From NCBI GenBank assembly GCA_031268885.1, contig JAIRWR010000029.1:5120-69119 (forward strand): a DNA stretch of 64,000 bases. Reading direction: 5' to 3'. Origin of the DNA: Synergistaceae bacterium (GTDB taxonomy: Bacteria > Synergistota > Synergistia > Synergistales > Synergistaceae). A program made the translations under genes and the position numbers. Positions 19,336-33,265 of this stretch are shown one piece after another. The stretch's first letter is position 1. Each line of letters opens with the position of its first letter. Below the pieces are notes generated by a model that made no database searches, was not told the origin of the DNA, and saw nothing but the letters and a program-made list of their open reading frames with translations.

Positions 19336-19582
19336 AGCGTATCACTCCGCGCCGCACGATTTCGCGCGAATCCCAAAGGACTATATTAGACGCGTTTGGG
19401 TCCTCAAGAGCTCTCTTCAAGATTTTCTCTCCCTTGGCGTAGATCCCTTGGAAAAAATTATAGCTTATTCGTTCCGCTGTAAGATAGCTGGAGAGTTCAA
19501 AGTTCTAAAGCGCGGCATGATTTCGCTTCACATTAAAAAAAAGAAGCGGAGGCTTATGAAGAGATCGGATTTACCTGAGGAG

Positions 19583-19595
19583 GCAATAAACACCG
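19583..19595. repeat. Left copy of the 13-nt direct repeat GCAATAAACACCG at the boundary of the AT-richer segment.
   Basis: Identical 13-mer at 35628..35640. Both copies are intergenic and both are followed within 1-7 nt by ATCAG. Confidence 0.5.
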
Positions 19596-19630
19596 AAAAA
19601 AATCAGAGCCCCGCGCGATAGCGAGGCTCC
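19596..19630 (-). terminator. Intrinsic terminator after the 139-aa gene.
   Basis: The reverse strand reads GAGCCTCGC-TATCGC-GCGGGGCTC (9-bp stem with one G-U), then TGA and TTTTTTT. Confidence 0.7.
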
Positions 19631-19683
19631 AACTTTAACAGTTATAGATGGAAATATAGGGGACAGAGACGCTTATATCTCCT

Positions 19684-20103
19684 TTAATCTTCTTCGTCGT
19701 AGTAACTGTTCACTTCCCAGTCCACCCCAGCGCGGAGCCTAAAGCTTCCTTTACGGGCCTTGATTATAAAATCCTTTTTCTTGACGAATTCCTGCTCTTC
19801 CCGCTCGCCTCTAGCACTCTTCCAATCTCCTGATTCAAAGGCGCTGCCATCGACGAGCAGCCAAACATCTTTCGTCCGCTCGAACCAGCACCCTTCAAAG
19901 TTATGCTTGAACCACTGGGGTAGATCATCTGGGTTATTGGAGATGACATAGGGGTCACTCTGCGTACCCTTGCCAGTTATCGCCAATGCCACCGAGATAT
20001 TGGCCAGCAACAACGCTACTGCCACCAAAACTAACACGATTATTTTTTTCACTGCGCTACCTGCTTTCTGGAGCAATTCCCCAAATATATTTGGCTTCAC
20101 CAA
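19684..20103 (-). CDS. Hypothetical membrane-anchored or secreted protein (139 aa).
   Basis: Hydrophobic segment KKIIVLVLVAVALLLANISVALA followed by a soluble domain (SDPYVISNNPDDLPQWFKHNFEGCWFERTKDVW...). No family recognised. Start uncertain (TTG with a poor RBS). Confidence 0.5.
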   Translation of the reverse strand: MVKPNIFGELLQKAGSAVKKIIVLVLVAVALLLANISVALAITGKGTQSDPYVISNNPDDLPQWFKHNFEGCWFERTKDVWLLVDGSAFESGDWKSARGEREEQEFVKKKDFIIKARKGSFRLRAGVDWEVNSYYDEED

Positions 20104-20496
20104 AGAGGTGGAAAAGCCTAACTCTATATTAAAGAGCTAGATCTGCTTAGACTTAATGACGATCTCGCAAAATTGAGATGGATTAAGTGCTAAACTTAAT
20201 TATTTCACGTAGTATATCATATCATATAGCAAATATCAAGATTAAATGGGATATATAGGCAAAATACGCGGTTTTTTGGTCAGTAATAGCTTAAACTCGA
20301 CTTTGGAGTCCGCGTTAAGTTTCCGGATCTCAGGATCCGCAGGACAATATTGATGGAGATATTGTAGCTGTGGTCGAATATCGTGACGGTTTGCTGATCG
20401 ACAGCATCCGCCAGGCAAAAGCCCGATAATATGGGCGACAAATACCAGGCCACAGCAATACCCCTAGCAGCAAACGTCAGGTTCTACTCACACAAA

Positions 20497-22407
20497 TTAC
20501 CTTTGATCGCGCAATAATTCGAAGACTGTAGTTGTAGCATCATGTATCGCGTCGATTGCAAGAGAGGGTTTCTTTACGTCACCAATGCGTAAAGTCAAAC
20601 CACGGCATGTTTTTTCAAGTTCTTCCGCTGCTTTTTTGTCGATCCTCCGCCCTATACACACCACGGCACAGTCAAAACCATCAATAATCGTATTTTTTGA
20701 CCTATCTTTAGTATTAACGTATACCACGCGCGGTAAGTCTATTTCCTCTATTATAACATTTAAGCGAACATCGATATTTGTTTCGGCAATACGTTTTAAC
20801 ATAAAATAGCGTCTGCTCGGGACAAGGTCCGTCGCAATGTCATCCTTCATTTCAAACAAAACGATTTCTTTACCCATTGATGCCAAAAACTCCGCCGTTT
20901 CGCACCCTACCAGCCCACCCCCTATTATCGCTACCTTGCGTCCGCTTGGCGGGTTCGAAATAGCATCGTCTCCCGTCATGACTAAAGGGTTTTCCATGCC
21001 TTTGAATGGCGGCACAAAAGGCAAACTACCAGTAGCTATTATCAAGATATCAGGGTCAATCTCCTCTATCATTTTTGCGTCTACTGTCTTCCCACACTTT
21101 ATCTCCACGTTTAATTGGGCGAGACGTTCGACGCGGTAGCGAACCATGTGCCCCATGTTTGCTTTGAAGGGAGGCATTTTGGCTAAGCGTATCAAACCTC
21201 CGGGTTCGTCATATTTTTCGAAAACTAAAGGATTCAATCCTTTTTCAGCCAGAATCGTCGCGGCTTGTAGACCTGCGGGACCAGCCCCGACAATTACTAT
21301 TTTCTTCTGTTTCAGCAAGTCGGAAGCTTCCGGTATATTAAGTGTGTGGAGCCTCCCCAGAAATGGATTCTGGGTACATCTCACAACTTTTCTCAGCCCA
21401 GGAGAACCTGTCCTGCATCCTTGATTACATCCGATACAACGTAACGGCGGCCTTCGATCAACTCCGAGATATTTATTGACAAGCGCAGGGTCTGCCAAAA
21501 GTGCTCTGCCCATACCGACGAGATCCGCCATGCCTGTTTCTATCAAGTTGCCAGCTTGTTCGATACTGACTACACGCGCCAACCCGACTACCGGAATCGT
21601 CAAAACATCTTTTATCGCCTTCACCGCAGGCATGTTATATCCGTCGGGCATGTCCATTGGAGCACATTTATATGCTTCCGATTCTGTCATCCCAATAGAT
21701 ACTGATATACAATCCGCGCCAGCGGATTGAATTAATTTAGCTATCTCAATAGTCTCCGGAAGTTCACGTCCCCCTGGTGTCATTTCGTCACTGCTAATCT
21801 TGAATGAAATTGGAAAATCGGCGCCGCATGAATCTCGAATATTTCTGATAATGTCCAGCGATAATTTTGCCCGTTTCTCCGGACTCCCCCCGTACTCATC
21901 GGAGCGTCTGTTGCTCTTGGGCGACAGGAAATCGGCGATGTACTGCTCATGACATCCTTCTATCTCAACGCCATCAACTCCGCAATCCATCAGCCTTTTA
22001 GCGGCTAGTCCATAGTAATCGGTGAGTAGCGTCAAGATCTCATGGTTGAATTCACCAGGTGTTTTCAGCCTATTACCAGCATCGTCAAAGACTGGCGCCG
22101 GATGCAACTGACAAAAAAGGCGCGCGCCGTTTTTATGGGCTATTTCAGCAAGGTCTCCCCAGTCTTTTTTGCAGACGTCGTCGCCAATGTAGGGTCTGGC
22201 AGCAACTCCTCCTCCATGAGGATTACCTGGAATAATAGCTAGTCCAACACCGCCATCTGTGATACTCTTGAAGAACTCGCGAAAATCGTCGCTTACCGTT
22301 CCATCGTCATTACAAAAAAAAGTGCATATAGACGGGAAGACTATACGATTTTTAAGCGTAACTTTGCTTATATTTACGCGCGTTAAGGCCTTATTTTCAC
22401 TGCTCAT
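20497..22407 (-). CDS. Old-yellow-enzyme / 2,4-dienoyl-CoA-reductase (FadH)-type enoate reductase (FMN TIM barrel + 4Fe-4S + FAD/NAD(P) domain).
   Basis: OYE N-terminus (LKNRIVFPSI...), cluster motif CIGCNQGC, dinucleotide fold VIVGAGPAGLQAA. The preferred start MSSENK at 22407 overlaps the Dabb stop as ATGA. Confidence 0.85.
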   Translation of the reverse strand: MSSENKALTRVNISKVTLKNRIVFPSICTFFCNDDGTVSDDFREFFKSITDGGVGLAIIPGNPHGGGVAARPYIGDDVCKKDWGDLAEIAHKNGARLFCQLHPAPVFDDAGNRLKTPGEFNHEILTLLTDYYGLAAKRLMDCGVDGVEIEGCHEQYIADFLSPKSNRRSDEYGGSPEKRAKLSLDIIRNIRDSCGADFPISFKISSDEMTPGGRELPETIEIAKLIQSAGADCISVSIGMTESEAYKCAPMDMPDGYNMPAVKAIKDVLTIPVVGLARVVSIEQAGNLIETGMADLVGMGRALLADPALVNKYLGVDRRPPLRCIGCNQGCRTGSPGLRKVVRCTQNPFLGRLHTLNIPEASDLLKQKKIVIVGAGPAGLQAATILAEKGLNPLVFEKYDEPGGLIRLAKMPPFKANMGHMVRYRVERLAQLNVEIKCGKTVDAKMIEEIDPDILIIATGSLPFVPPFKGMENPLVMTGDDAISNPPSGRKVAIIGGGLVGCETAEFLASMGKEIVLFEMKDDIATDLVPSRRYFMLKRIAETNIDVRLNVIIEEIDLPRVVYVNTKDRSKNTIIDGFDCAVVCIGRRIDKKAAEELEKTCRGLTLRIGDVKKPSLAIDAIHDATTTVFELLRDQR

Positions 22408-22700
22408 ATTTCGTAGTCGGCCACTGCTCGTTCGCATGTTACAGATTTTACGTATTTCTGATTTTGTTTGTGCAGTGGATGATCTATATAGAAAGCTAAT
22501 GCGTCCTTATCCTTGAATCGTGAATTTAAACAGATGTCGAAGCCATTTGGATTGAAATTCTTTCCCACTTCCAGGTCAAGCAAGCCCTCTATTTTGCCCA
22601 CAAGCCCCTCCAGATTGTTTTTTATTATCTCTTTGTTTTCGTCTTTGGTATGTCCTTCCGCGAAATCTTTCAATTTCCACATGACTATATGCCTTAACAT
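22404..22700 (-). CDS. Dabb (stress-responsive alpha/beta barrel) family protein.
   Basis: MLRHIVMWKLKDFAEG...DALAFYIDHPLH. RBS AGAGAGGGGG lies before the ATG at 22700. Confidence 0.8.
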   Translation of the reverse strand: MLRHIVMWKLKDFAEGHTKDENKEIIKNNLEGLVGKIEGLLDLEVGKNFNPNGFDICLNSRFKDKDALAFYIDHPLHKQNQKYVKSVTCERAVADYEI

Positions 22701-22734
22701 GAAAATCCCCCTCTCTGTATTTATCACTTATAAG

Positions 22735-23598
22735 CTATGCCAATGGCAGAAGCTTATCATAGTTGCCAGACATCATTGCCTCAAGGTCTTTCAGTGAAAC
22801 ACCTAGCATATTAAGTGTGTACGCAAATGCGCGAATCGCCTCGTGGGGCATGCTTTTCCTCGGGTGCCCGCAGTCGCTGCCTATGATGAACCGCTCGCTG
22901 CCGAAGCGAGATACGGCTTCCGAGTACAAGTGAATATCTATTGGTTTTGGCAATGGATTTAGCGCGTTAGTGGAGAATTCTACAAAAGCTCCATTTTCAA
23001 CAGCTTCTTTGAGTTGTTCCATAGTAAAAGCGGGTGGCGTGAAAAATGGATGAGTGACCACTATTTTCTTTAAACCGACATCCTTAGCTACTTTAATAAG
23101 TTCTAGACTCTCATCAGGGGAGAGATGCCCAGTGCTTAGGATGGCGTCATACTGCAAAACAAGTTTGCAGATCACAGGGACCTCCGATTTTACCTTACCG
23201 GACTCGTCCAATATCGTGACAGGTTTAAAATCATATCCGTTAGCCGGATTGAACAGTCCAGGTTTCCCATCTAACATGACCTGATATGCCGAGTGGAATG
23301 TCGGCATCCATACTAATTTTGCGCCGAATTGCAGCGCGGCATCGACTGCGGCGGGGTTTATTCCTCCAGTCTGCATATTGAGTGTTATACCGCCGTAAAC
23401 CTTTATGCCCTCGACAGTTTTTTCAGTATGATAAGCTCTGCCCATAGTCGTATCCAGATGACATTTTATGCCTATCGCGCGCATTCCCGCATCCCTACAC
23501 GCTAACGCGACATCGACATCATCACCTACGCGTTCCCCCAGATCCGGACTCGAATGAATATGGAGATCACAAGCCCCTTTAACGGATATCTTTGGCAT
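22735..23598 (-). CDS. Amidohydrolase-superfamily (TIM-barrel, metal-dependent hydrolase-like) protein of unknown specificity.
   Basis: N-terminal DLHIHSSPD (HxH-type metal motif), later THPFF and GSDCGH blocks, RBS GAGGAG. Specific family not recognised. Confidence 0.6.
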   Translation of the reverse strand: MPKISVKGACDLHIHSSPDLGERVGDDVDVALACRDAGMRAIGIKCHLDTTMGRAYHTEKTVEGIKVYGGITLNMQTGGINPAAVDAALQFGAKLVWMPTFHSAYQVMLDGKPGLFNPANGYDFKPVTILDESGKVKSEVPVICKLVLQYDAILSTGHLSPDESLELIKVAKDVGLKKIVVTHPFFTPPAFTMEQLKEAVENGAFVEFSTNALNPLPKPIDIHLYSEAVSRFGSERFIIGSDCGHPRKSMPHEAIRAFAYTLNMLGVSLKDLEAMMSGNYDKLLPLA

Positions 23599-23651
23599 GA
23601 AATTTCACTCCTCACAGTTAAATACTTGATTATATTAAAATAATCACGAAT

Positions 23652-23758
23652 GATGTAAAAAAATTTTATCAGACCACATTGACTCTTGTAAAATTAGTGG
23701 ATAATATAAGTGCATATATGTATAAAAAATATTTATATTATGGGTGAAAATAATCATG
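23652..23758. repeat. Left arm of the inverted repeat flanking the LysR gene (107 bp).
   Basis: The reverse complement of 24715..24824 matches it. The only differences are one A in an A-run and a 14 vs 18 nt TA/TG-rich segment. The outer ~56 nt and inner 35 nt are identical. Confidence 0.95.
23663..23692 (-). promoter_or_regulatory. Outward-facing sigma70-like promoter in the left repeat arm, driving the amidohydrolase-Dabb-enoate reductase operon.
   Basis: The reverse strand reads TTTACA, 17 nt, ATAAAAT. The predicted +1 falls within a few nt of the repeat outer edge (23652). Confidence 0.5.
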
Positions 23759-24685
23759 CTGCTGAAGGACTTACGTTATGTAATGGACATATTTGAAACA
23801 AAAAATTTATCAAAGAGCGCAAGCCGTCTTTTCGTGACACAGCCTACGCTGACGCAATCTGTCAAAAGGCTTGAGGATTTTTTCTCGTCGAGGCTCTTCG
23901 AGAGAACTAAACACGGTATGGAACCAACTCCCGAGGGAATTCTGTTCATGGAGTACGCGTCGGATATAATAGCGCGTTGTGAAAAACTTAGAGAACGGAT
24001 GAAAAATGTTACACAGGGCGGGAAAGCATACTTGAAGGTTGGAACGGGGAAACTGTACGGAAAACATTTCATGCCGCTTTACATCAAGCCGTTCGGAGAA
24101 CGTCGGCCAGACATTGATATCGAATTCATTGAAGATCGTTCCGTGATTTTGGAATCAATGCTATTAAACGGCATCCTTGATATTGGCATCATACCAGCTC
24201 CCATAGAATCTAACATATTGATATCGCGGCCTCTTTTTTACGAGGAACTCTTCCTCGCTCTCCCCAGAGATCATAAGATGAATCTGCCCTATTATAACTA
24301 TACAGTTGCTGGAACCTTCCCTGAAATTGATCTGCACCTCCTCTCCGGTGAGATTTTCATAATTTCGAAGACGGGGTACAAATTACACGACCTTTTTACA
24401 AACATGTGTAAGATGATGGGCTTCAAACCACGAAGCACACTTGAAATCGAGAGCGTCGATACGATAATAAGCTTCGTAAGGAATAACAAAGGCATAGGGT
24501 TTGTACCCGATTCTTTCGCGAGGCGTGAGATGTGGGCGGAGAGCGTTAATTATTATCGTATAAAAAACGCGAACTGCAAACGGGCTTTTATGATAGTTCA
24601 TGCGGATGAGACAAAATTATCGCTTACCGCCGCCGAATTCGTGTCAGTTCTCTTTGAAATACAGGAAAAAATAGGATATAAATAA
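23756..24685 (+). CDS. LysR-family transcriptional regulator.
   Basis: N-terminal wHTH LKDLRYVMDIFETKNLSKSASRLFVTQPTLTQSVKRLE followed by a LysR substrate-binding domain. The start is ATG 23756 or GTG 23744; both lie inside the repeat arm. Confidence 0.9.
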   Translation: MLLKDLRYVMDIFETKNLSKSASRLFVTQPTLTQSVKRLEDFFSSRLFERTKHGMEPTPEGILFMEYASDIIARCEKLRERMKNVTQGGKAYLKVGTGKLYGKHFMPLYIKPFGERRPDIDIEFIEDRSVILESMLLNGILDIGIIPAPIESNILISRPLFYEELFLALPRDHKMNLPYYNYTVAGTFPEIDLHLLSGEIFIISKTGYKLHDLFTNMCKMMGFKPRSTLEIESVDTIISFVRNNKGIGFVPDSFARREMWAESVNYYRIKNANCKRAFMIVHADETKLSLTAAEFVSVLFEIQEKIGYK

Positions 24686-24714
24686 AAGAATCTCTCGACG
24701 TTGGTCCCGTGTAG

Positions 24715-24824
24715 CATGATTATTTTCACCCATAATATAAATATTTTTTATACATACATACATATATTTATATTATCCACTAATTTTACAAGAGTCAATG
24801 TGGTCTGATAAAATTTTTTACATC
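24715..24824. repeat. Right arm of the inverted repeat flanking the LysR gene (110 bp).
   Basis: See the left arm. It includes an inverted copy of the first LysR codons (CATGATTATTTTCAC). Confidence 0.95.
24785..24814 (+). promoter_or_regulatory. Outward-facing sigma70-like promoter in the right repeat arm, reading towards tctC.
   Basis: TTTACA (24785-24790), 17 nt, ATAAAAT (24808-24814). Sequence identical to the promoter in the left arm. Confidence 0.5.
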
Positions 24825-25023
24825 GGTTGAGCATATCTCTATTCTTGATGCCCTTATCAAATGTGACGAGGGAAAAGCTGAGCAAGCCCTCGAAAGATTA
24901 CTTTTTCTTCATTGCGTGAAGCGTTCCAAGGAGTGGCTTCATTGTTTTGAAGACATGAATCACTTTTCATGTGCGATCAAAAAAGGAGGGAGGGATCTAT
25001 TTGAGGAAAAATTGATCGACTAG
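24825..25023 (+). pseudogene. 5'-truncated remnant of a GntR-family (FCD C-terminal domain) regulator gene.
   Basis: The frame is open from the repeat edge to TAG 25021-25023 with no start codon. It reads VEHISILDALIKCDEGKAEQALERLLFLHCVKRSKEWL..., matching the EH..I..A....D...A.....H signature of FCD domain C-termini. Confidence 0.55.
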
Positions 25024-25133
25024 AAATACTGTTCTGCGCTGAAAAAGTGTCCAACTTTAGGTCCCGAATAGAACAAGGAATCAGTATTCGGCGACGGCAT
25101 GGCGACAATTTTCGACATAGAGGGGGAAGAGTT

Positions 25134-26096
25134 TTGAAAAAGGCGGTTTTGTTGATCGCGATAGCTTTTGTGTATTCTATACTTGGCGCGTCTGTATCTT
25201 TTGCTGCTGATTTCCCATCGAGAAAAATAGACATTATAGTTCCCTTCGGCCCCGGCAGCGGGACCGATACTACGATGAGAGCACTGGCGCCCTCGTTGCA
25301 AAAAGTACTCGGAGTTCCTGTCGTCGTTCAGAATATTGAGGGGAGCAGCGGACTTCGTGGTTTGGAGTACGCGTCCAAACAGCCCGCGGATGGCTATACG
25401 TTATTTCTGAACAACACCACGCATATATTGTTGGAGATGCAAAACCTCTCTCCCATAGCGCTTACCCAGAGCTTCGATCCGGTGGCTTGCGTGGTTCAGG
25501 ACTCGGTATTATTTACGGCGTCGGCGAATGGGCGCTTTAAGACCTGGAAGGATGTAGTCGCTTACGCTAAAGAAAATCCAGGCAAGGTCACAGTTTCCGG
25601 TTCTAGCCCCAGGGGAGTGGATGGCGTTTCTACACTCATGGTGGCCAAAGGAGCTGGAATAGAGGTTACATTCATCCCGTTCAACAGCGGCGCGGAGGCG
25701 ATGAGCGCCATCCTTGGCGGTCACGTCGACTTGGGAAATATGGGCCCGGCAGACGCTATGGAGATGATAAGAGGCGGCGAGATGAATGGTATTCTCGTAA
25801 CTTCCGAAAAGAGATTGGATATATTCCCAGACACCCCCACCACGTACGACGAGGGAATCAATGTGACAGCCGGAGCCTGGCGCGCGCTTGCCGTACCGAA
25901 AGGAACACCCCCTGAGGTAATCTCTAAACTTGAAAGCGCCATTAGAGAGGCGTATGACAGTCCGGAATTCCAGAAGTGGCTCAAGGATGTGACGTTGGAT
26001 CAACGTCCCGGCTGGAAAGATGCCAAGGGCCTCGGCGAACTCTGGCAGAGCGAGCTAATATACTTCAAGAAAGCTTTCGAAGAGATAGGATTGTAA
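25134..26096 (+). CDS. tctC: Tripartite tricarboxylate transporter substrate-binding protein (TctC / Bug family).
   Basis: Signal peptide LKKAVLLIAIAFVYSILGASVSFA. Bug-family blocks IDIIVPFGPGSGTDT and FIPFNSGAEA. The preferred start is TTG 25134 behind GAGGGGGA; the track start 25047 lacks an RBS. Confidence 0.85.
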   Translation: MKKAVLLIAIAFVYSILGASVSFAADFPSRKIDIIVPFGPGSGTDTTMRALAPSLQKVLGVPVVVQNIEGSSGLRGLEYASKQPADGYTLFLNNTTHILLEMQNLSPIALTQSFDPVACVVQDSVLFTASANGRFKTWKDVVAYAKENPGKVTVSGSSPRGVDGVSTLMVAKGAGIEVTFIPFNSGAEAMSAILGGHVDLGNMGPADAMEMIRGGEMNGILVTSEKRLDIFPDTPTTYDEGINVTAGAWRALAVPKGTPPEVISKLESAIREAYDSPEFQKWLKDVTLDQRPGWKDAKGLGELWQSELIYFKKAFEEIGL

Positions 26097-26127
26097 TTTT
26101 TCCGTAGACCTTAATTCCTCAAAGAAA

Positions 26128-26170
26128 GGCTCTTTCATCTAGGCGCTATACCGAGAAGAGAGGGCCTTTT
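26128..26170 (+). terminator. Imperfect hairpin plus TTTT between tctC and tctB (possible partial terminator/attenuator).
   Basis: GGCTCTTTC...GAAGAGAGGGCC stem with G-U pairs, then TTTT. This placement is typical for binding-protein over-expression relative to permease genes. Confidence 0.3.
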
Positions 26171-26199
26171 AAAATAAAAACTATCAAGGAGGTGCGGAA

Positions 26200-26700
26200 A
26201 TGGGTATAGAAATAATAGTGAACATAGTTTTCCTCTTGTTTTGCGTTTTTTGTTTCATACACGTCGGTGTTGGCGTTCAGCCTCTGGCCATACCCGGAGC
26301 CCTGAGTGGATCGGCATGGCCGAGAACGATTCTCGCTGGGCTTATAGTGGCGGTCACTCTGAATATTTACCTCACATATCGAAAAAACCATGCGCCTGGC
26401 GCGCCGCGAGAGATTCCGTTCAAAGAGTTCATGCCCCCGAAATTCATACTCTCCTTTGTCCTCATGTTGTTTTACGCGATAGGGATAAACTACCTGGGTT
26501 TCATCGTCAGTACGTTCATCTTTATCACCGCGTTTTCATATGTGATAGGGCTCAGGGAAAAAATCAAGATGATCTTTGGTGGCTTGGTAAGCACTGGAGT
26601 AATTTATATTGTCTTTCAGATCTTCCTCCAAGTGATGCTTCCGCGCGGAGTCGGTATTTTTCGCGAGATAAGCTTATGGCTAGAATTGTTAATACAGTGA
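26200..26700 (+). CDS. tctB: Tripartite tricarboxylate transporter small membrane subunit.
   Basis: 166 aa, four predicted hydrophobic helices, located between tctC and tctA. RBS AAGGAGGTG. Confidence 0.8.
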   Translation: MGIEIIVNIVFLLFCVFCFIHVGVGVQPLAIPGALSGSAWPRTILAGLIVAVTLNIYLTYRKNHAPGAPREIPFKEFMPPKFILSFVLMLFYAIGINYLGFIVSTFIFITAFSYVIGLREKIKMIFGGLVSTGVIYIVFQIFLQVMLPRGVGIFREISLWLELLIQ

Positions 26701-26710
26701 GGTGGCTGTC

Positions 26711-28216
26711 ATGAATCTTTTAGATTTGCTTGTCGCTGGCGCCAATGTAGTATTTACGCCCACCATATTGCTTTTTATATGTATCGGCAACGTAACAGGG
26801 GTAATCTTCGGGGCTCTGCCTGGGATCAGCGCGGCTATGGCTGTGGCGTTGATGGTTCCCTTTACCCTTACGCTCGACCCCATCGGTTCCATCGCTTTTC
26901 TCTCGGCTGTCTATTGTTCAGCGATAACGGGAGGCGGTATTCCAGCAATACTGTTCAAGATTCCCGGAACTCCATCAAGCGCCGTAACGACATTCGACGG
27001 TTTCCCTCTGGCACAAAGAGGACAGGCCGGCAAGGCGCTCTTATTAGTGCTGGTCTCCTCCGCTTTTGGCGGAATAGTCTCCGCTTTCGCCATGCTTCTC
27101 GTCTCGAGACAGCTTTCAAGTCTAGGGCTTCAATTCGGGCCGTCCGAACTCTTCGCGATAGCCTTCCTCGGCCTCAGCGTGCTGACGAGTATGGACGAAG
27201 ACAGAATGCTCAAAACAGTGATATCTGGTCTCACCGGATTGTTACTGGCAACTATAGCTATGGATCCTCTTGAAGGGACGCCGCGTTTAACGTTCGGTTT
27301 CGTGTATCTGCTGGGAGGCATACCGATGATTCCCATGATGGTCGGCATGTTCGCCGTATCGGAGGTTTTAAAGCAGGTCTGCAACCCCACGGAATTCGAC
27401 AAAATTGATGGCGGCTACCTGAAAGACTCTCCCATGAGGTTGTCTTTTTCCGAATGGTGGGGGCTCAAGTGGACTATGATCCGCTGTTCAGTTCTTGGGA
27501 CACTGGTCGGGATACTGCCCGGCGCGGGAGCAACCATTGCGTCGTTCCTGGGGTACGGTATGGAGATAAAACTCTCAAAACATCCGGAAGAGTTTGGAAA
27601 CGGTTCTCTAACAGGATTGTGCGCCTCAGAAACATCAAATAACGCCGCTACCGGAGGCTCGATGGTGCCATTGTTGTCCCTTGGCATACCAGGAGGTAAT
27701 TCGGCCGCGGTTATGGTAGCGGCATTAATGCTTCAGGGGGTTCAGGTAGGACCAATGCTCTTGAAAGCCCAGCCTACCTATCTTTCAAGTGTTTTCATAT
27801 CCATGATAGTCACCAACGTGATGATGGTCTTCATCTCGATAGCAGTGGCCAAGATGTTCTCTAAACTGATAAAAATTCCGTACTATTCACTGGGACCACT
27901 TATTATCCTGTTCGCAGCCGTGGGGAGCTACGCGGCACAGAACAATACAGGAGATGTGATGGTTACAATGTTAGCGGGCCTCGCTGGATATTTCATGGCT
28001 GAATTTAAATATTCTCCAGCTGCTCTCACGCTTGGTCTCGTCCTCGGTGATATATGCGAGAACAACCTAAGACGAGCGGTGATGATAGAACACGGCGACA
28101 TGCTGAACGTGTTCTCACGGCCCATAACAGCCACGTTGCTTGTCCTATGTGTGATATTCATTATCGTTCCTATAATAAGAAAACGGATGAGAGACAAACA
28201 CGCGCTGCTCTCCTGA
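26711..28216 (+). CDS. tctA: Tripartite tricarboxylate transporter large permease subunit.
   Basis: ~500 aa polytopic protein with GALPGISAAMAVAL and GILPGAGATIASF repeats typical of TctA. ATG 26711 lies behind GAGGTGG. Confidence 0.9.
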   Translation: MNLLDLLVAGANVVFTPTILLFICIGNVTGVIFGALPGISAAMAVALMVPFTLTLDPIGSIAFLSAVYCSAITGGGIPAILFKIPGTPSSAVTTFDGFPLAQRGQAGKALLLVLVSSAFGGIVSAFAMLLVSRQLSSLGLQFGPSELFAIAFLGLSVLTSMDEDRMLKTVISGLTGLLLATIAMDPLEGTPRLTFGFVYLLGGIPMIPMMVGMFAVSEVLKQVCNPTEFDKIDGGYLKDSPMRLSFSEWWGLKWTMIRCSVLGTLVGILPGAGATIASFLGYGMEIKLSKHPEEFGNGSLTGLCASETSNNAATGGSMVPLLSLGIPGGNSAAVMVAALMLQGVQVGPMLLKAQPTYLSSVFISMIVTNVMMVFISIAVAKMFSKLIKIPYYSLGPLIILFAAVGSYAAQNNTGDVMVTMLAGLAGYFMAEFKYSPAALTLGLVLGDICENNLRRAVMIEHGDMLNVFSRPITATLLVLCVIFIIVPIIRKRMRDKHALLS

Positions 28217-28249
28217 TCAAATTAAATTTTGAATAAATAATCATATTTA

Positions 28250-29662
28250 ATGAAGGAATGGTGTGTCTTGAATAAAACTGAAAATCCACTAAGGACTCTG
28301 GCGCAGTATATCGTTTCGATAAAAATCGAAGAGCTTCCGGCACAAGTAAAGCAAGCCGCTGTTCATTGTCTCGTTGACACGGTGGGAGCGGCGATCGGCG
28401 GGCTTGATTATGATGAGGTTCCAGAGGTGATAGAAACATTCCAAGCCTATTCAGGGCACTACTGCGAACGCGATCCCAGAGCTTCCGTATGGGGCACGCA
28501 TTTCAACACATCTGTCTTTCAAGCTTCCTTTTTAAACGGAATCCTGTCGCACGCACTTGAGTTAGACGATGTTCACACCGGCTCAAAAACTCATATCGGC
28601 GCTGTGGTAGCTCCCGCGGCTTGGTCTGTGGCAGAGGCGATAACAGCGTCGGGAGCGAATTTGATAGAAGCGTTGGTCGCGGGTTATGAAACGATGTCGA
28701 GAATAGGTCGTGGGTTTGGCGTATCTGATCACAGACTCAAGGGATGGCACGTGTCAGGTACGGCTGGAACGTTTGGAGCGGCCGCCGCCGCGGCCAAACT
28801 CCTTGGTTTAGACGCGGAAAGAACTTTAGCCGCTCTTGGCATGGCGGGAACACAATCGTCCGGTGTGTGGGCTTTTTTGGGAGACGGAGCAACCAGCAAA
28901 AAATTACACACTGGAAGATCCGCTGAAAACGGGGTCGTTGCCGCGTTCCTCGCTAAGGCTGGCATGACTGGCCCTGAGCATATTCTCGATTCCGAGGATG
29001 GCGGATTATACAGGACAATGTCTGGGTCGAGTGATTTGAGTGAAGTATCGCGAAAATTAGGGACTGTCTTCGAGATCCTGAACGTCGATAAGAAACCATA
29101 TTCCTGCTGTCGAAGCATGCACCCCGCGATAGATGCCATTCTGTCAGTTAAAAAAGAACTCGGCCTCCCTGCCAGTCAGATAAAAAAAGTTAAAATTAGA
29201 TCGTATGAAGTGGGCATTAAGCAGTGCGGGATCATAATGTATCCAGCAAATACCAGCGAATCCAAATTCTCAATGAGATTCGGCGTCGCAGTCGCTTATA
29301 TAGACGGCTTGGCGGGGAAGGAACAGTTCTCAACGGAGAGGATAAACGATCCTGAAGTACGCGCGCTAGCCGCTCGAGTCGATTATATCGCGGACAGCGA
29401 ATTTACCTCTCGTTATCCTAAAAATTGGGGTTGTTCTCTAGAAGTTACGATTGAAGATGGCTCCGTAATCAAAAAGGAAGTTCTTGATGCCTCTGGGAGC
29501 GTAGCAAATCCAATGACAGTGGAGCAGTTGAAAAAAAAGTTCAAATCACTTGTGTCTAGTTTCGTGGGGAACGAACGGTCGGAATTGATTTTAAAATCAC
29601 TTGAAAATATGGAGAATATTCCTGAAGTATCGGATATTTTGAGTCTTCATAGGGGGAAATGA
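28250..29662 (+). CDS. MmgE/PrpD-family protein (2-methylcitrate dehydratase-like).
   Basis: 470 aa. Family-typical blocks LELDDVH, GWH.SGTAGTFGAAAAAAKLLGL, GMAGTQSSG and KPY.CCR..HPAID. Confidence 0.85.
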   Translation: MKEWCVLNKTENPLRTLAQYIVSIKIEELPAQVKQAAVHCLVDTVGAAIGGLDYDEVPEVIETFQAYSGHYCERDPRASVWGTHFNTSVFQASFLNGILSHALELDDVHTGSKTHIGAVVAPAAWSVAEAITASGANLIEALVAGYETMSRIGRGFGVSDHRLKGWHVSGTAGTFGAAAAAAKLLGLDAERTLAALGMAGTQSSGVWAFLGDGATSKKLHTGRSAENGVVAAFLAKAGMTGPEHILDSEDGGLYRTMSGSSDLSEVSRKLGTVFEILNVDKKPYSCCRSMHPAIDAILSVKKELGLPASQIKKVKIRSYEVGIKQCGIIMYPANTSESKFSMRFGVAVAYIDGLAGKEQFSTERINDPEVRALAARVDYIADSEFTSRYPKNWGCSLEVTIEDGSVIKKEVLDASGSVANPMTVEQLKKKFKSLVSSFVGNERSELILKSLENMENIPEVSDILSLHRGK

Positions 29663-30948
29663 AATTGAATTACACTGAAATTGATTTCCCTGTCGGAAAG
29701 GGATTCGTCAGAGCGCATGTGCCGAATTTGATGGCAGTCGCGGCTCCAAAAAAAGTAAGAGGCGTACCCGACGAAAGAGCGGAGGTGAAAAGAGCGCTCA
29801 AAAATCCGATTGGAACTAGAATGCTCTCAGAAATCGCTCAAGGAAGGAAGAACGCAGCTATAGTGGTAAACGATATTACACGTCCCTATCCTGGCGCTCT
29901 TCTGGTCGATGAAATCGCTAACGAACTGACGCTAGCTGGTCTTAAGGACGAAGATATATTCCTTATCGTTGCTTACGGAACACATAGAGTGAACTCAGAT
30001 GATGAAATAAAAGGGATGTTCGGTGAGGAAATCACAACTCGCTTCCGCATAATTCACCATAAAGGCAGTGACGAAGATACCCTGATAACACTTGGAAAGA
30101 CCGAGCGAGGAATCCCTGTAACCGTAAACAGAGAATACCTTAACGCCGATGTCAAAATATTGACAGGATTGATAACTCCACATCATTCCGCTGGTTTTTC
30201 TGGCGGACGAAAGAGCGTTCTCCCTGGAATATCGGGACTGGAGACTCTTAAAATTCATCATTCATTTCCCTTTAGGCCGACACGTCCTTCTATGGGCTGG
30301 ATAAAGGACAACCCGTTTCACGAGGAGGCCCTTTCGGCCGCAAGGATGGCTGGCGTCGATTTCATAATCAACACTATTGATAATCCCAGCAGGGAGCTTG
30401 TAGCCGCAGTGGCCGGAGAATTGAATGACGCGCATATGGAAGGCGTAAGGATATGCAAAGATATATGGTCTTTTGAACTTCCATCAAAAGCAGATGTCGT
30501 GATAGTGAGTCCGGGAGGCTATCCCAGAGATTTCGACCTTCACCAATCCCAAAAAGCGTGTGCTTGCGCTGAACTGGCTTGTCGTGAAGGAGGAGAAATT
30601 ATTCTATGTGCCGAAGCGACAGACGGGCCGGGGAAATTTGCGAAATTACTAATGGATGCAAACGACCCGCAGGAAGTTATCGACAAATACGCCAGAGAAG
30701 GTTTTACAGCCGAGGTAACATCTAAAGCGTACATGTACGCCAGAGCAATGAAGAGCCATAAAATAGGCCTCGCGTGCAGCATGGTATCCGACGATACAGC
30801 GCGGAACATGTTCATGACTCCGTACAGGACAATAGATGATGGCATTAAAGACGCTATGGACATCTACGGAGAAACCGCGTCCTTTCTAGCAATTCCATAT
30901 GCGGCAGACATAATATTGACACACTCTGGGGAGGAGTCTCTTTTATGA
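29659..30948 (+). CDS. LarA-family (nickel-pincer-nucleotide dependent) 2-hydroxyacid racemase/epimerase homologue.
   Basis: VNDITRPYP, AYGTHR, TPHHSAGFSGGRKSVLPG and KIHHS blocks correspond to the catalytic His/His, the NPN-tethering Lys and the Ni-ligand His positions of lactate racemase as I recall them. The start overlaps the upstream stop as ATGA. Confidence 0.8.
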   Translation: MKLNYTEIDFPVGKGFVRAHVPNLMAVAAPKKVRGVPDERAEVKRALKNPIGTRMLSEIAQGRKNAAIVVNDITRPYPGALLVDEIANELTLAGLKDEDIFLIVAYGTHRVNSDDEIKGMFGEEITTRFRIIHHKGSDEDTLITLGKTERGIPVTVNREYLNADVKILTGLITPHHSAGFSGGRKSVLPGISGLETLKIHHSFPFRPTRPSMGWIKDNPFHEEALSAARMAGVDFIINTIDNPSRELVAAVAGELNDAHMEGVRICKDIWSFELPSKADVVIVSPGGYPRDFDLHQSQKACACAELACREGGEIILCAEATDGPGKFAKLLMDANDPQEVIDKYAREGFTAEVTSKAYMYARAMKSHKIGLACSMVSDDTARNMFMTPYRTIDDGIKDAMDIYGETASFLAIPYAADIILTHSGEESLL

Positions 30949-32087
30949 GAAAGTTCAGAGCGGTGTTCATGCGCGGTGGAACCAGTAAGGGGTTGATATT
31001 TCGAAGAGAGGACCTTCCGGAAGATCAGCGCGATTGGGATTCAATATTTCTTCAAGCAATGGGTAACCCAGATGTGAAACAGATCGACGGACTTGGCGGA
31101 ACAGTGTCCTCAAATAATAAAATCGTTGTGGTTTGGAGATCTGAAAAGGAAGGAGTCGATGTTGAATACCTTGTCGGTCAAGTCGTAGTTGGGAAAGATC
31201 AAGTCGATTACAAAGCAAATTGCGGAAACATGACCTCCGCGGTCGGTCCTTTCGCGCTTGACGAAGGGCTTGTCCAACCCAGCGGCGATCTGATGACGGT
31301 CAGGCTGTTCAACAAGAACACTGATAAAAAGATCGACGTCTCTTTTCCTCTGAGAGACGGAAGATTCGCGTTGGAAGGCAACTGTAAAATAGCCGGAATT
31401 GACGGAACCGCCGCGGAAATCAAAGTGAATTTCTTAGATCCGGCAGGCGCCAAAACAGGCTGCCTCCTGCCGACGGGAAAACAGCGTGAAATTCTCGACG
31501 TGCCTGGCGTGGGGAAAATAGATGTTTCAATTATAGATATTAGCGGTCCTTTCATCATGGTTAATGCTGACGACATTGGACTTGAAGGCATTGAGACCCC
31601 TGAAGAGATAAATAGCAATGCCGAAACATGTGAAAAGCTCGAAAAAATACGCGGTCTAGCCGCTTGTACCATAGGTATGGCGTGTGATATGGAAGACGCG
31701 TCCGCAAATTCACCGGCTTTGCCCAAAATAGGAGTGTGTTCCATTCCAAAGAGATATAAAGACCTGTCGGGTAGGACTGTAGACACAACCGAAATGGATT
31801 TATTGGTCAGAGTGATGTCGGTATTCAAATGCCATAAAGCGAGCCCTCTTACAGCCGCTTGCGCGATAGCTGGCATGGCTGTCATAGATGGAACGATACC
31901 GAACAGCCTGATGAAACGACAAGTTCCAGAGACTGGGGAGATACCCATTCGCATAGCGCATCCCAGCGGAGTCATGACAATGTATGCCGATCTCCAACTA
32001 AGCGGCGGAAAGCCCTTTATCGCTGGAGTCGCTGCACAGCGCACGTCAAGACGAATAATGGACGGAACAGTCTATATAAGGAAGTGA
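30945..32087 (+). CDS. PrpF-family isomerase (2-methylaconitate / aconitate cis-trans isomerase-like).
   Basis: MRKFRAVFMRGGTSKGLIF...QIDGLGG...ANCGNM. ATGA overlap with the LarA-like stop. Confidence 0.85.
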   Translation: MRKFRAVFMRGGTSKGLIFRREDLPEDQRDWDSIFLQAMGNPDVKQIDGLGGTVSSNNKIVVVWRSEKEGVDVEYLVGQVVVGKDQVDYKANCGNMTSAVGPFALDEGLVQPSGDLMTVRLFNKNTDKKIDVSFPLRDGRFALEGNCKIAGIDGTAAEIKVNFLDPAGAKTGCLLPTGKQREILDVPGVGKIDVSIIDISGPFIMVNADDIGLEGIETPEEINSNAETCEKLEKIRGLAACTIGMACDMEDASANSPALPKIGVCSIPKRYKDLSGRTVDTTEMDLLVRVMSVFKCHKASPLTAACAIAGMAVIDGTIPNSLMKRQVPETGEIPIRIAHPSGVMTMYADLQLSGGKPFIAGVAAQRTSRRIMDGTVYIRK

Positions 32088-32092
32088 CAGAT

Positions 32093-33265
32093 ATGAACGC
32101 ACAGATTGATAAAGCAGCCGAAGAATTCAGAAATCTACTTGAAACCGAATTCAAGAGAATTGGACTTATGAAAGAAACTCTGACTCCTATTAACCATGAA
32201 AATATGGATAAAATTGTCGTAGGAATAATTCCAGGAGACGGAATAGGCCCGCTAATCATGAGTCAAACAGAGCGAGTACTTCACGAACTCGCTGGCAGTG
32301 AGATATCGAACGGACGAATGGAGTTACGTCACATAGGAGGCCTCGATATAGAGAACCGAGCGGCTCTAAAACAATCCGTACCAGAAGATATCATGACCGA
32401 AATAAAAAAATGTCAGATTATACTAAAAGGTCCGATGACAACCCCTCGCCCTGGAGATCCGTGGCCCAATATGATAAGCGCTAATTCTCTGCTTCGCAGA
32501 GGATTGGACCTCTTTTGCAATATGCGCCCCGTATCAATGCCTGAAAAGGCAATAGACTGGACCTTCTTCAGGGAGAATATCGAAGGAGCTTACATATGGG
32601 GTAATAAAGGGATACAAGTTAACAGTGACTTAGCTGTCGACTTCGTGATAGAAACACGCCAAGGCAGTGAAAGGATAGCGCGCGCAGCCTTTGAATACGC
32701 TCGCAAAACTGGCAAACGATTCGTGACCGCGGTGACAAAAGCTAATATAGTAAAGCTAACCGACGGCAACTTCTTGAAAGTATGCCGCTCCGTCGCCTCC
32801 GAATATCCGGGGATAAATTACGATGAACGTCTCGTTGATATTGTGGCCGCTAAACTAGGGGATACAGAGTTCAATGAAAATTTACAAGTTTTCATACTAC
32901 CTAATCTTTATGGTGACATCATATCGGACATAGCAGCCGAAATGCAAGGCGGCGTTGGTTCTGCCGGAAGCGCGAACCTCGGCGCTAGATACGCTCTGTT
33001 CGAAGCGGTTCACGGAACCGCTCCTTTTCTCATGCAAAACAACCGAGGGGAATATGCCGATCCCAGCAGTCTATTACGCGCGCTATCCCTTATGTTATTA
33101 CACATTGGAATGCGGGATAAATCAAAGTTATTGGACAGAGCGCTCGATATATGCGGGAGAACGGAACGGAAGATTACAATTACGAGCAAGAGAGAAGATG
33201 CCTCGACCAAGGAATATACCGATTATATTCTTAGAACAATCGCGGAACTGAGGAGAAAAGACTGA
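32093..33265 (+). CDS. Isocitrate/isopropylmalate dehydrogenase-family oxidative decarboxylase, isocitrate-type.
   Basis: GIIPGDGIGP, LKGPMTTP....SANSLLRRGLDLFCNMRP (S-x-N as in isocitrate dehydrogenases), NLYGDIISD. The start ATG 32093 (MNAQIDK) is preferred because the track extension to 31859 overlaps prpF. Confidence 0.85.
   Translation: MNAQIDKAAEEFRNLLETEFKRIGLMKETLTPINHENMDKIVVGIIPGDGIGPLIMSQTERVLHELAGSEISNGRMELRHIGGLDIENRAALKQSVPEDIMTEIKKCQIILKGPMTTPRPGDPWPNMISANSLLRRGLDLFCNMRPVSMPEKAIDWTFFRENIEGAYIWGNKGIQVNSDLAVDFVIETRQGSERIARAAFEYARKTGKRFVTAVTKANIVKLTDGNFLKVCRSVASEYPGINYDERLVDIVAAKLGDTEFNENLQVFILPNLYGDIISDIAAEMQGGVGSAGSANLGARYALFEAVHGTAPFLMQNNRGEYADPSSLLRALSLMLLHIGMRDKSKLLDRALDICGRTERKITITSKREDASTKEYTDYILRTIAELRRKD

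What the first reader, a model, noticed from the sequence alone, without database searches (positions are those of the whole stretch)
23652..24824. LysR gene enclosed by a near-perfect 107/110-bp inverted repeat that duplicates a complete promoter/operator module facing two operons
Segment 23652-23758 and the reverse complement of 24715-24824 are identical except for one A in an A-run and a 14 vs 18 nt TA/TG-rich stretch.

Each arm carries an outward-reading TTTACA-17-ATAAAAT promoter. Its predicted +1 falls almost exactly at the outer edge of the repeat. So the duplicated unit is the promoter plus upstream operator, without any 5' UTR.

The inner ends contain the LysR start region (GTGAAAATAATCATG). 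Consequently the right arm also points a copy of the putative lysR promoter and start antisense into the lysR 3' end.

The net architecture is one LysR regulator with identical divergent control regions on both sides. One drives the leftward amidohydrolase-Dabb-enoate reductase operon and the other drives the rightward tct-prpD-larA-prpF-icd-acn operon. This looks like regulon assembly by promoter duplication-inversion. A candidate imperfect dyad, ATTAGTGGATAAT, lies just upstream of the -35 in both arms.
Basis: seen in the sequence. Interest (0 to 1): 0.7.

Follow-up and report, generated by a model that had tools for sequence, protein, structure and literature searches.

The report
Duplicated LysR control region flanking lysR
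A LysR-type regulator gene in a Synergistaceae genome is bracketed by two near-identical, oppositely oriented copies of its own promoter/operator region. The second copy has overwritten most of an older regulator gene, and so probably places a neighbouring tricarboxylate-uptake and breakdown operon under the same regulator.

Summary
The inverted repeat is real. Arms 23652-23760 and 24713-24824 (109 and 112 nt) share 105 identical positions. All 3 substitutions and a 4-nt indel sit in one 13/17-nt spacer.

The left arm is the ancestral lysR/DUF6282 divergent control region. It aligns with the same intergenic region in five distant orthologous loci (LysR 53-67% identical), none of which has a second copy. 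Conserved elements are:
- face-to-face promoter hexamers;
- a T-N11-A dyad, TATAAA-N5-TTTATA, which changes on both halves to TATTAA-N5-TTAATA in two loci.

The right arm is a derived inverted copy. It ends about 3 nt past the predicted outward transcription start (about 24821). It abuts a frameshifted, roughly 42-codon tail of a regulator gene that is intact upstream of tctC in the closest relative. That tail matches the C-terminus of a GntR/FCD protein.

Best reading: duplication and inversion of a complete LysR-type control module replaced a GntR-type regulator. This couples tctCBA-prpD-larA-prpF-icd-acn to the DUF6282-Dabb-OYE operon.

- The main operator is probably the TATAAA dyad, not ATTAGTGGATAAT.
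- The two copies differ by 4 bp in site spacing.

Binding and transcription are untested. This is an instructive variant of a known architecture, of modest interest.

The parts
23652..23760 (.). Left arm (109 nt): the ancestral lysR/DUF6282 divergent control region, including the lysR ribosome-binding site, ATG and 2 more bases.
   Evidence: Aligns with the intergenic region of orthologous loci L001, L002/3, L031 and L032.
24713..24824 (.). Right arm (112 nt): the derived inverted copy of the control region.
   Evidence: 105 positions are identical to the left arm. Its 17-nt spacer differs from the 12-13 nt seen in the left arm and all orthologs.
23756..24685 (+). lysR coding sequence (309 aa).
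   Evidence: Pfam HTH_1 (9e-17) and LysR_substrate (1e-31). JGI annotates the same 309-aa product. Aligns over its full length with 6 homologs.
23679..23707 (+). Predicted lysR promoter: -35 TTGACT (23679-84), 17-nt spacer, -10 TAATAT (23702-07). Predicted start about 23714.
   Evidence: The hexamers and the 17-nt spacer are kept in all orthologous loci.
23663..23692 (-). Predicted outward promoter of the DUF6282-Dabb-OYE operon: -35 TTTACA (23692-87), -10 TGnTAAAAT (23668-63). Predicted start about 23656.
   Evidence: TGTAAA is invariant. A TATAAT-like hexamer lies 16-18 nt away in the orthologs.
24785..24814 (+). Duplicated outward promoter facing tctC: -35 TTTACA (24785-90), -10 TGnTAAAAT (24809-14). 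Predicted start about 24821.
   Evidence: Identical in sequence to the left copy.
23721..23737 (.). Candidate primary LysR site (recognition site): dyad TATAAA-N5-TTTATA, T-N11-A type. Centred about -73 from the outward start and at +8..+24 of the lysR promoter.
   Evidence: Only two matches in the window, with 0 expected. Conserved in orthologs. L031/L032 carry TATTAA-N5-TTAATA, a change on both halves.
24736..24752 (.). Right-arm copy of the dyad, centred about -77 from the predicted start at 24821.
23693..23705 (.). Candidate activation site overlapping the outward -35 and the lysR spacer/-10. The right-arm copy is at 24772-24784.
   Evidence: Partly conserved: A-T-x-A-x-x-x-G-x-T-A-A in alignment A4.
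23708..23720 (.). Variable spacer, 13 nt (ancestral length). Its right-arm counterpart is 24753-24769, 17 nt, containing (ATGT)3.
24770..24798 (-). Inward-facing copy of the lysR promoter, pointing antisense into the lysR 3' end. It is followed by the copied ribosome-binding site and start, and by a 43-codon ORF at 24598-24729(-).
24825..24950 (+). Frameshifted tail (about 42 codons, stop TGA 24948-50) of a displaced GntR/FCD-like regulator gene.
   Evidence: DNA alignment with L049. With the frameshift corrected, Smith-Waterman score 39 against 18.7±3.9 in shuffles (2 of 5000 reached it). The L049 tail against the L045 GntR/FCD C-terminus scores 50 against 21.7±3.5 (0 of 5000). No direct family hit.
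25134..35571 (+). Right-hand operon tctC (TTG 25134)-tctB-tctA-prpD-larA-like-prpF-icd-like-aconitase-like. About 313 nt of leader lies downstream of the predicted right-arm start.
   Evidence: Pfam and NCBIfam. The same gene order is seen in L028 and L045-47.
20497..23598 (-). Left-hand operon: DUF6282 (22735-23598), Dabb (22404-22727), OYE-type Fe-S flavin oxidoreductase (20497-22437).
   Evidence: The DUF6282-Dabb pair lies next to lysR in L001, L002 and L003.

Best explanation
**What it is.** A roughly 110-bp unit holding the whole lysR control region was copied in inverted orientation to a point 27 nt past the lysR stop codon. The unit contains:
- the autoregulated lysR promoter;
- a T-N11-A recognition dyad;
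- an activation-site region;
- the divergent target promoter up to about +4.

The copy overwrote all but the last 42 or so codons of a GntR/FCD-type regulator gene that used to precede tctC.

**How it likely works.** One LysR-type tetramer pool would bind the dyad and the -35-proximal site on both arms. With an inducer, probably a tricarboxylate or a pathway intermediate, it would activate two outward promoters:
- leftward into DUF6282-Dabb-OYE;
- rightward into tctCBA-prpD-larA-prpF-icd-acn.

Binding at +8..+24 of the lysR promoter would repress lysR itself, and also the inward-facing copy.

In relatives, DUF6282-Dabb and tctCBA sit in a single operon. The duplication achieves the same co-regulation across two transcription units.

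**Shown and inferred.** Shown: the repeat, its orthology to the ancestral control region, the conserved hexamers and dyad, the derived state of the right arm, and the truncated neighbouring gene. Inferred: LysR binding, activation, the inducer, and the activity of the right copy.
For: - **Repeat.** Arms share 105 identical positions over 109/112 nt, and chance expectation is 0.
- **Left arm is ancestral.** It aligns with the lysR/DUF6282 intergenic region of L001 (LysR 67% identical), L002/L003 (54%) and L031/L032 (55-56%). Invariant motifs are TTGA..TTGTAAAAT.A...G.TAA.ATA and TAT(A/T)AA-N5-TT(A/T)AT(A/T).
- **Operator candidate.** The dyad changes on both halves in L031/L032. It occurs only in the two arms within 64 kb.
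- **No second copy elsewhere.** None of the orthologous loci has one.
- **Right arm is derived.** The gap between the lysR -10 and the dyad is 13, 13, 12, 12, 13 and 13 nt in the left arm and orthologs, and 17 nt in the right arm.
- **Promoters.** The outward TTTACA-18-TGnTAAAAT sites are the top promoter-like sites in the region.
- **Displaced regulator.** Shown by the remnant's homology to the L049 tail and, through it, to a GntR/FCD C-terminus. The syntenic operon has a GntR/FCD neighbour in L045-47.
- **Functional link between the two sides.** DUF6282-Dabb-TctCBA are contiguous in L001, L002/3 and L027. L027 is the closest relative for the window's DUF6282 (84%), TctC (73%) and TctA (81%).
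- **No terminator-like site** between lysR and tctC.
- **General LysR-type architecture** (divergent target, T-N11-A recognition site, activation site near -35): PMC6449761.
Against: - There are no transcription or binding data.
- The right copy has 4 extra bp between the dyad and the promoter-proximal site, about 0.4 of a helical turn. By what is generally known of LysR-type activators, this could weaken or alter activation.
- The tct operon could instead be expressed by read-through from lysR, or from an unrecognised promoter in the 183-nt native leader.
- The structure rests on a single metagenome-assembled contig. The NCBI and JGI records are the same 73,703-nt contig.
- No close relative was available to show the state before the duplication: the next LysR is 67% identical, and both genome and metagenome scans were exhausted.
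- The remnant's GntR identity is indirect.
Confidence: 0.65

Rival explanations
1. Rearrangement scar without regulatory use. A larger tail-to-tail inverted duplication of lysR plus its promoter formed, and the second lysR copy was then deleted down to ATGCT. The right arm is what is left. The tct operon would be expressed mainly by read-through from lysR or from its own leader, and the right arm would add little or only constitutive transcription.
For: - The inner boundary falls 5 nt into the lysR coding sequence, as expected if a second gene copy was deleted.
- There is no terminator-like site between lysR and tctC.
- The altered 17-nt spacer may disable proper LysR phasing.
Against: - The outer boundary keeps the whole outward promoter to about +4, and every conserved element is intact.
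- Apart from the spacer, 96 of 96 positions are unchanged save one A.
- The displaced regulator means the operon needs some new control.
- Relatives co-transcribe DUF6282-Dabb with tctCBA, so coupling the two makes functional sense.
Confidence: 0.2
2. Invertible cassette. Homologous recombination between the arms flips lysR. This switches which operon receives lysR read-through, or, with a crossover in the outer 57 nt, swaps the 13- and 17-nt spacer variants between the two operons.
For: Near-perfect inverted arms of 57 and 41 identical nt flank a 952-nt segment. Because both arms carry the lysR start, the gene stays intact in either orientation.
Against: - No recombinase, invertase or transposase gene among the ORFs scanned between 8.4 and 43.7 kb.
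- In the surveyed literature, LysR-family genes are depleted among predicted programmed inversions (PMC9881135).
- Only one orientation is on record.
- The outward promoters are unaffected by flipping.
Confidence: 0.05
3. Assembly artefact: a mis-join or fold-back in a metagenome assembly.
For: The structure comes from one contig of one metagenome-assembled genome, and there is no independent assembly of the junctions.
Against: - The arms are not identical: 3 substitutions and two indels, so they are distinct physical copies.
- The arms are shorter than a typical read.
- The lysR 3' flank and the arm's inner end share no sequence that could drive a graph mis-join.
- Gene order and orientation on both sides are coherent with relatives.
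Confidence: 0.05
4. Mobile element: lysR carried between terminal inverted repeats of a transposon-like or MITE-like unit.
For: Terminal inverted repeats flank a single gene.
Against: - The left arm is orthologous to the ordinary intergenic region of relatives, with the same neighbours.
- There is no transposase.
- There is no direct repeat at the flanks (...CACGAAT | arm ... arm | CGGTTGA).
- There are no further copies in the window.
Confidence: 0.02

Closest known systems
Canonical LysR-type divergent control region (for example CatR/catBCA, ClcR/clcABD, BenM/benA, TfdR/tfdDII)
   Same: - The regulator gene is transcribed divergently from its target operon.
- A dyad of the T-N11-A type lies upstream (here centred about -73).
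- A second site overlaps the -35.
- The dyad lies just downstream of the regulator's own promoter, which fits autorepression (PMC6449761).
   Different: - The whole module is present twice, as an inverted pair bracketing the regulator gene.
- The AT-rich half-sites TATAAA/TTTATA are unlike the ATAC-N7-GTAT-type boxes of the characterised proteobacterial examples.
- The host is a Synergistaceae bacterium.
tfdR/tfdS on plasmid pJP4 (Cupriavidus pinatubonensis JMP134)
   Same: A LysR-type regulator and its control region were duplicated onto the opposite strand. As a result, several catabolic units (tfdDII..., tfdA) are served by the same regulator specificity (PMC11507517, PMC6449761).
   Different: - On pJP4 the whole regulator gene is kept in two copies.
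- Here only the roughly 110-bp control module (plus 5 nt of coding sequence) is duplicated, the two copies are about 950 bp apart, and the copy replaced a different-family regulator.
NodD and nod boxes in rhizobia (from general knowledge, not checked here)
   Same: One LysR-type regulator acts on several highly similar promoter/operator modules placed in front of different operons.
   Different: Nod boxes are dispersed, older and more diverged. They are not an inverted pair around the regulator gene, and they do not carry a copy of the regulator's own promoter and start codon.
Invertase-driven promoter switches (fimS-type, Bacteroides-type invertons)
   Same: Inverted repeats flank a short segment that contains promoter elements.
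   Different: - There is no recombinase gene nearby.
- The promoters lie in the arms rather than between them, so flipping would not turn either operon off.
- The arms are about 110 nt, whereas from general knowledge (not checked here) invertase-type switch repeats are much shorter.

Membership tests
LysR-type transcriptional regulator (protein) | N-terminal winged-helix HTH_1 domain plus a C-terminal LysR substrate-binding domain, about 300 aa. | tested here: met
   PF00126 at residues 3-61 (9e-17) and PF03466 at 92-299 (1e-31); 309 aa. No NCBIfam equivalog reaches its cut-off, so the subfamily is uncharacterised.
LysR-type divergent control region | The regulator gene is divergent from the target operon and shares an intergenic region with it. 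| tested here: met
   lysR (+) and DUF6282 (-) are 157 nt apart. The same arrangement is seen in L001, L002/3 and L032.
LysR-type divergent control region | A T-N11-A dyad about 55-80 bp upstream of the target start, and a second site near -35. | tested here: met
   TATAAA-N5-TTTATA is centred about -73 (left) and -77 (right). It is conserved in orthologs, with a two-sided change in L031/L032. Positions are relative to predicted starts, not mapped ones.
LysR-type divergent control region | The regulator binds the sites, activates the target with an inducer, and represses its own gene. | not testable with these tools
   Needs EMSA or footprinting and expression assays.
Programmed invertible element | A site-specific recombinase is encoded next to the repeats. 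| tested here: not met
   No recombinase, integrase or transposase domains among the ORFs scanned between 8.4 and 43.7 kb.
Programmed invertible element | Both orientations are present in the population. | not testable with these tools
   No reads are available, and only one assembly exists.
Transposable element / MITE | Terminal inverted repeats with flanking target-site duplication, a transposase or multiple dispersed copies. | tested here: not met
   No flanking direct repeat. Only two copies in 64 kb. The left arm is the orthologous intergenic region in relatives.
GntR/FCD regulator (the remnant at 24825-24950) | Detectable GntR HTH and/or FCD domain. | tested here: inconclusive
   - No Pfam, NCBIfam or PDB hit, and no significant hit among 1.84 billion representatives.
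- The frameshift-corrected tail matches the tail of the L049 upstream gene (2 of 5000 shuffles reached the score).
- That tail matches residues 202-228 of the L045 GntR/FCD protein (0 of 5000).

The most novel reading that the evidence does not exclude
The inverted pair may do more than supply a second promoter.

- **RNA duplex.** Any lysR transcript that reads into the right arm folds a perfect duplex of about 46 bp. The duplex joins its own 5' leader, ribosome-binding site and start codon to the arm's inner half.
- **Antisense transcription.** The inward copy of the lysR promoter fires antisense into lysR.
- **Possible combined role.** These two features could form a built-in post-transcriptional brake or processing site, with a double-strand-specific RNase separating lysR from tct mRNA. 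That would set the regulator-to-target ratio.
- **Possible inversion.** Occasional RecA-driven inversion could swap the 13- and 17-nt operator spacings between the two operons.
Probability: 0.1. Interest if true: 0.6.

Novelty: new variant of a known kind. Interest (0 to 1): 0.35.

Why it matters
This is a clean, datable snapshot of how a bacterial regulon can grow. The regulator was not duplicated and sites did not evolve one base at a time. Instead, a complete promoter-plus-operator module was copied onto the other side of the regulator gene and displaced a regulator of another family.

It also gives three things that can be tested:
- a predicted operator (TATAAA-N5-TTTATA) for an uncharacterised, rare LysR subfamily (7 homologs above 50% identity among 5.8 billion proteins);
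- a natural 4-bp spacing variant with which to test the phasing rules of LysR-type activation;
- a functional link between the unstudied DUF6282-Dabb pair and a tricarboxylate uptake and isomerisation pathway in Synergistaceae.

Tried and rejected
**Exact-sequence look-ups**
- The window's LysR (309 and 313 aa), DUF6282, P0001 and P0010 all returned nothing. The source contig is not indexed.

**Collection scans**
- Two genome-contig scans found no close LysR relative, only OxyR-like proteins at 28% identity or less.
- A degenerate arm pattern scanned against metagenome contigs found nothing.
- The LysR alignment scan of metagenome contigs added only L031 and L032.

**The remnant as a GntR gene**
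- The 66-67-residue open frame at 24820-25020 gave no Pfam or NCBIfam hit.
- The exhaustive search gave only two repetitive, meaningless hits.
- The PDB search gave only chance hits.
- There was no direct similarity to the L045 GntR.
- The single-frame reading was therefore dropped in favour of a frameshifted 42-codon tail, recognised through L049.

**Other ideas rejected**
- That the window's tctCBA is simply the ortholog of the tctCBA in the L001/L002 LysR operons. It is a different clade: 45/32/57-60% identity, against 72/51/84% between L001 and L002.
- Rfam families in 19000-26500: none.
- Mobile-element and invertase readings: see the rival explanations.
- DUF6282 in the paper library: no paper.
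Full report
**1. The observation**

The sequence at 23400-25100, the repeat finder and a pairwise alignment confirm an inverted pair.
- The arms are 23652-23760 (109 nt) and the reverse complement of 24713-24824 (112 nt).
- They have 105 identical positions, 3 substitutions, a 1-nt indel in the A-run near the outer edge, and a 4-nt indel.
- All three substitutions and the 4-nt indel fall in one stretch: 23708-23720 on the left and 24753-24769 on the right.
- This leaves 57 identical nt on the outer side (bar the one A) and 41 on the inner side.
- A 33-mer from the arm matches only these two places with up to 3 mismatches; shuffles give 0.
- Both boundaries are sharp. Outside them similarity drops to AT-rich background. 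No direct repeat flanks the unit.

**2. The genes**

*Between the arms*
- A 309-aa LysR-type regulator lies at ATG 23756-24685, with HTH_1 and LysR_substrate domains.
- JGI annotates the same 309-aa product. NCBI calls only the last 228 aa. The N-terminal domain is nevertheless intact and aligns with homologs.
- The contig belongs to a Synergistaceae metagenome-assembled genome.

*Leftward*
- DUF6282, a Dabb protein and an OYE-type Fe-S flavin oxidoreductase.

*Rightward*
- tctC (best start TTG 25134 behind GAGGGGG), tctB, tctA, then a PrpD-family protein, a LarA-like protein, a PrpF-family protein, an isocitrate/isopropylmalate-dehydrogenase-family protein and an aconitase-family hydratase.

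*Other checks*
- No recombinase or transposase gene was found among the ORFs scanned between 8.4 and 43.7 kb.
- No Rfam family matches 19000-26500.

**3. What the arm is**

The LysR subfamily is rare. Only seven proteins above 50% identity were found among 5.8 billion, and none in 185,579 species-representative genomes.

Five loci could be read: L001 (67% identical), L002/L003 (54%) and L031/L032 (55-56%).
- In L001, L002 and L003, lysR is divergent from DUF6282-Dabb-TctC-TctB-TctA(...).
- In L032, lysR is divergent from Ldh_2-RraA.
- None has an inverted repeat around lysR.

Their lysR-upstream regions align with the window's arm. A pattern match shows the same layout in every one:

| Element | Form |
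|---|---|
| lysR -35 | TTGA(C/T)(C/T) |
| Spacer | exactly 17 nt, containing the invariant TTGTAAAAT |
| lysR -10 | TAA(T/A)AT |
| Gap | 12-13 nt |
| Dyad | TAT(A/T)AA-N5-TT(A/T)AT(A/T) |

- The reverse complement of TGTAAA is the -35 (TTTACA) of the outward promoter. A TATAAT-like hexamer follows it 16-18 nt away in each locus.
- In the window this is TGnTAAAAT, the top-scoring promoter-like site on each arm.
- The dyad is of the T-N11-A type expected for LysR-type regulators (PMC6449761).
- It reads TATAAA/TTTATA in the window and in L002, and TATTAA/TTAATA in L031/L032. Both halves changed so that the symmetry is kept.
- It occurs only in the two arms within the 64-kb window.

With predicted starts at about 23656 (outward) and about 23714 (lysR):
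- the dyad is centred near -73 of the target promoter and at +8..+24 of the lysR promoter;

This is the textbook layout of recognition site, activation site and autorepression. Both readings are inferences from position and conservation.

**4. Which arm is the copy**

- The left arm has the ancestral neighbours (DUF6282-Dabb).
- It also has the ancestral 13-nt gap. The right arm has 17 nt, with an (ATGT)3 run.
- The right arm is therefore derived.
- The two modules are not quite 'identical'. Their only clustered difference shifts the dyad by 4 bp relative to the promoter.

**5. What the copy displaced**

The closest available relative of the right-hand operon is L049, a 1.4-kb contig whose TctC is 86% identical.
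- L049 carries the end of a co-directional upstream gene...GDVEKGEAILKNHLNMSFEAFLEVASLC*, about 206 nt before tctC.
- The window aligns with it at the DNA level.
- After allowing a frameshift near 24916, the window reads ...CDEGKAEQALERLLFLHC/EAFQGVASLF* and stops at the homologous TGA (24948-50).
- Smith-Waterman score is 39, against 18.7±3.9 in shuffles; 2 of 5000 shuffles reach it.
- The L049 tail in turn matches residues 202-228 of the GntR/FCD protein that neighbours the syntenic tctCBA-prpD-larA-prpF-prpF-acn-icd operon in L045-47. The score is 50 against 21.7±3.5, with 0 of 5000 shuffles reaching it.
- On its own the remnant hits no family, so its GntR/FCD identity is indirect.

The right arm begins exactly where this remnant is cut (24824/24825). 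The copy therefore removed the promoter and about 85% of the former regulator gene.

Regulators next to this operon type vary among relatives:
- GntR/FCD in L045;
- an unrelated LysR (21% identical) in L028;
- none recognisable in L048.

Regulator turnover at this position is therefore common.

**6. Why coupling the two sides makes sense**

- DUF6282-Dabb and tctCBA are contiguous in one operon in L001, L002/3 and L027.
- L027 is the closest relative of the window's DUF6282 (84%), Dabb (70%), TctC (73%) and TctA (81%).
- The window's tctCBA belongs to a different clade from the one in the L001/L002 LysR operons.
- In the window the two sets lie on opposite sides of lysR. The duplicated module would restore their co-regulation.

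**7. Mechanism proposed**

*Shown*
- The structure.
- The orthology of the module.
- The conserved elements.
- The polarity of the duplication.
- The truncated neighbour.

*Inferred*
- LysR binds the dyad and the -35-proximal site on both arms.
- It activates both outward promoters in response to an imported tricarboxylate or a pathway intermediate.
- It represses the lysR promoter and its inward-facing copy.

*Side effects that follow directly from the sequence*
- There is no terminator-like site between lysR and tctC, so lysR read-through can add to tct transcription.
- Such a transcript folds a duplex of about 46 bp that buries the lysR ribosome-binding site and start.
- The copied lysR promoter, ribosome-binding site and ATG open a 43-codon antisense ORF across the lysR 3' end.

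How the copy arose cannot be determined. One plausible route is a tail-to-tail inverted duplication of module plus lysR, followed by deletion of the second gene down to ATGCT. This is general knowledge of inversion-duplication remodelling and was not tested.

**8. Rivals**

| Rival | Weight | Main point |
|---|---|---|
| Non-functional scar, tct expressed by read-through | about 0.2 | The 4-bp spacing change is its best argument. |
| Recombination-driven invertible cassette | about 0.05 | No recombinase, and flipping leaves both outward promoters in place. |
| Assembly artefact | about 0.05 | The arms differ, are shorter than a read, and nothing would drive a mis-join. Only one assembly exists. 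|
| Mobile element | about 0.02 | The left arm is the ordinary orthologous intergenic region. |

**9. Comparison with what is known**

- The module is a standard LysR-type divergent control region (PMC6449761).
- The nearest documented precedent for duplication onto the opposite strand is tfdR/tfdS on pJP4, where the whole regulator gene was copied (PMC11507517).
- Nod boxes show one LysR-type regulator serving many similar modules (general knowledge).
- What is unusual here is fourfold: only the roughly 110-bp module was copied; the copies bracket the regulator gene as a near-perfect inverted pair; the copy ends within a few bases of the predicted start; and it displaced a regulator of a different family.
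- I found no description of this arrangement. DUF6282 does not appear in the paper library.

**10. Verdict**

It is corrected on the operator and on the claim that the copies are identical. Its function is untested. This is a new variant of a known kind. The interest is modest (0.35): a neat, testable example of regulon rewiring rather than a surprise.

Noticed in passing
window 23756-24685: NCBI's annotation (MDR1481459.1) calls this LysR as a 228-aa 'substrate-binding protein' starting at Met82. The full 309-aa ORF with an intact HTH_1 domain is present, and JGI annotates 309 aa. The AT-rich 5' part (GC about 0.36) may have misled start prediction.
   Followed up: partly
window 23654-23659 (-) and 24817-24822 (+): A second TTTACA sits at the very outer edge of each arm. 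Its -10 partner lies outside the repeat (TAATAT 23632-37 on the left, TATTCT 24840-45 on the right). A possible second promoter would therefore be split by the duplication boundary and would differ between the two sides.
   Followed up: no
window 24598-24729 (-): The right arm's copy of the lysR ribosome-binding site and start opens a 43-codon ORF (MKIIMLHGTNVERFF...) antisense to the lysR 3' end. It is probably a by-product of the duplication.
   Followed up: no
window 23714-24760 (+): A lysR transcript that reads into the right arm is predicted to form a perfect long-range duplex of about 46 bp. The duplex covers its own leader, ribosome-binding site and start codon.
   Followed up: partly
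L001 547-3350; L002 5522-9812; L027 2270-6702: DUF6282-Dabb-TctC-TctB-TctA is a recurrent gene string in metagenome contigs, with two different TctCBA clades. It is followed by Ldh_2-RraA or by oxaloacetate-decarboxylase-like genes. DUF6282 has no paper in the searchable library.
   Followed up: partly
L002 11148-11660: A 170-aa Phage_integrase-domain fragment lies directly downstream of the orthologous lysR in L002. Nothing comparable is in the window.
   Followed up: no
window 14146-16728 (-) and 16792-19335 (-): Two tandem regulators of about 850 aa each, with an AAA/STAND N-terminus, MalT-like TPR region and LuxR (GerE) C-terminus, lie just beyond the left-hand operon.
   Followed up: no
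window 31859-33265 (+): The listed icd-like ORF overlaps prpF by about 230 nt when read from its TTG start. The Iso_dh domain begins at residue 121, so the true start is probably near 32090-32200.
   Followed up: no
window 33265-35571 (+): The 'aconitase' scores 1214 bits, above the cut-off, against NCBIfam PRK11413 ('hydratase'). It matches that model rather than AcnA/AcnB, so it is probably not a housekeeping aconitase.
   Followed up: no
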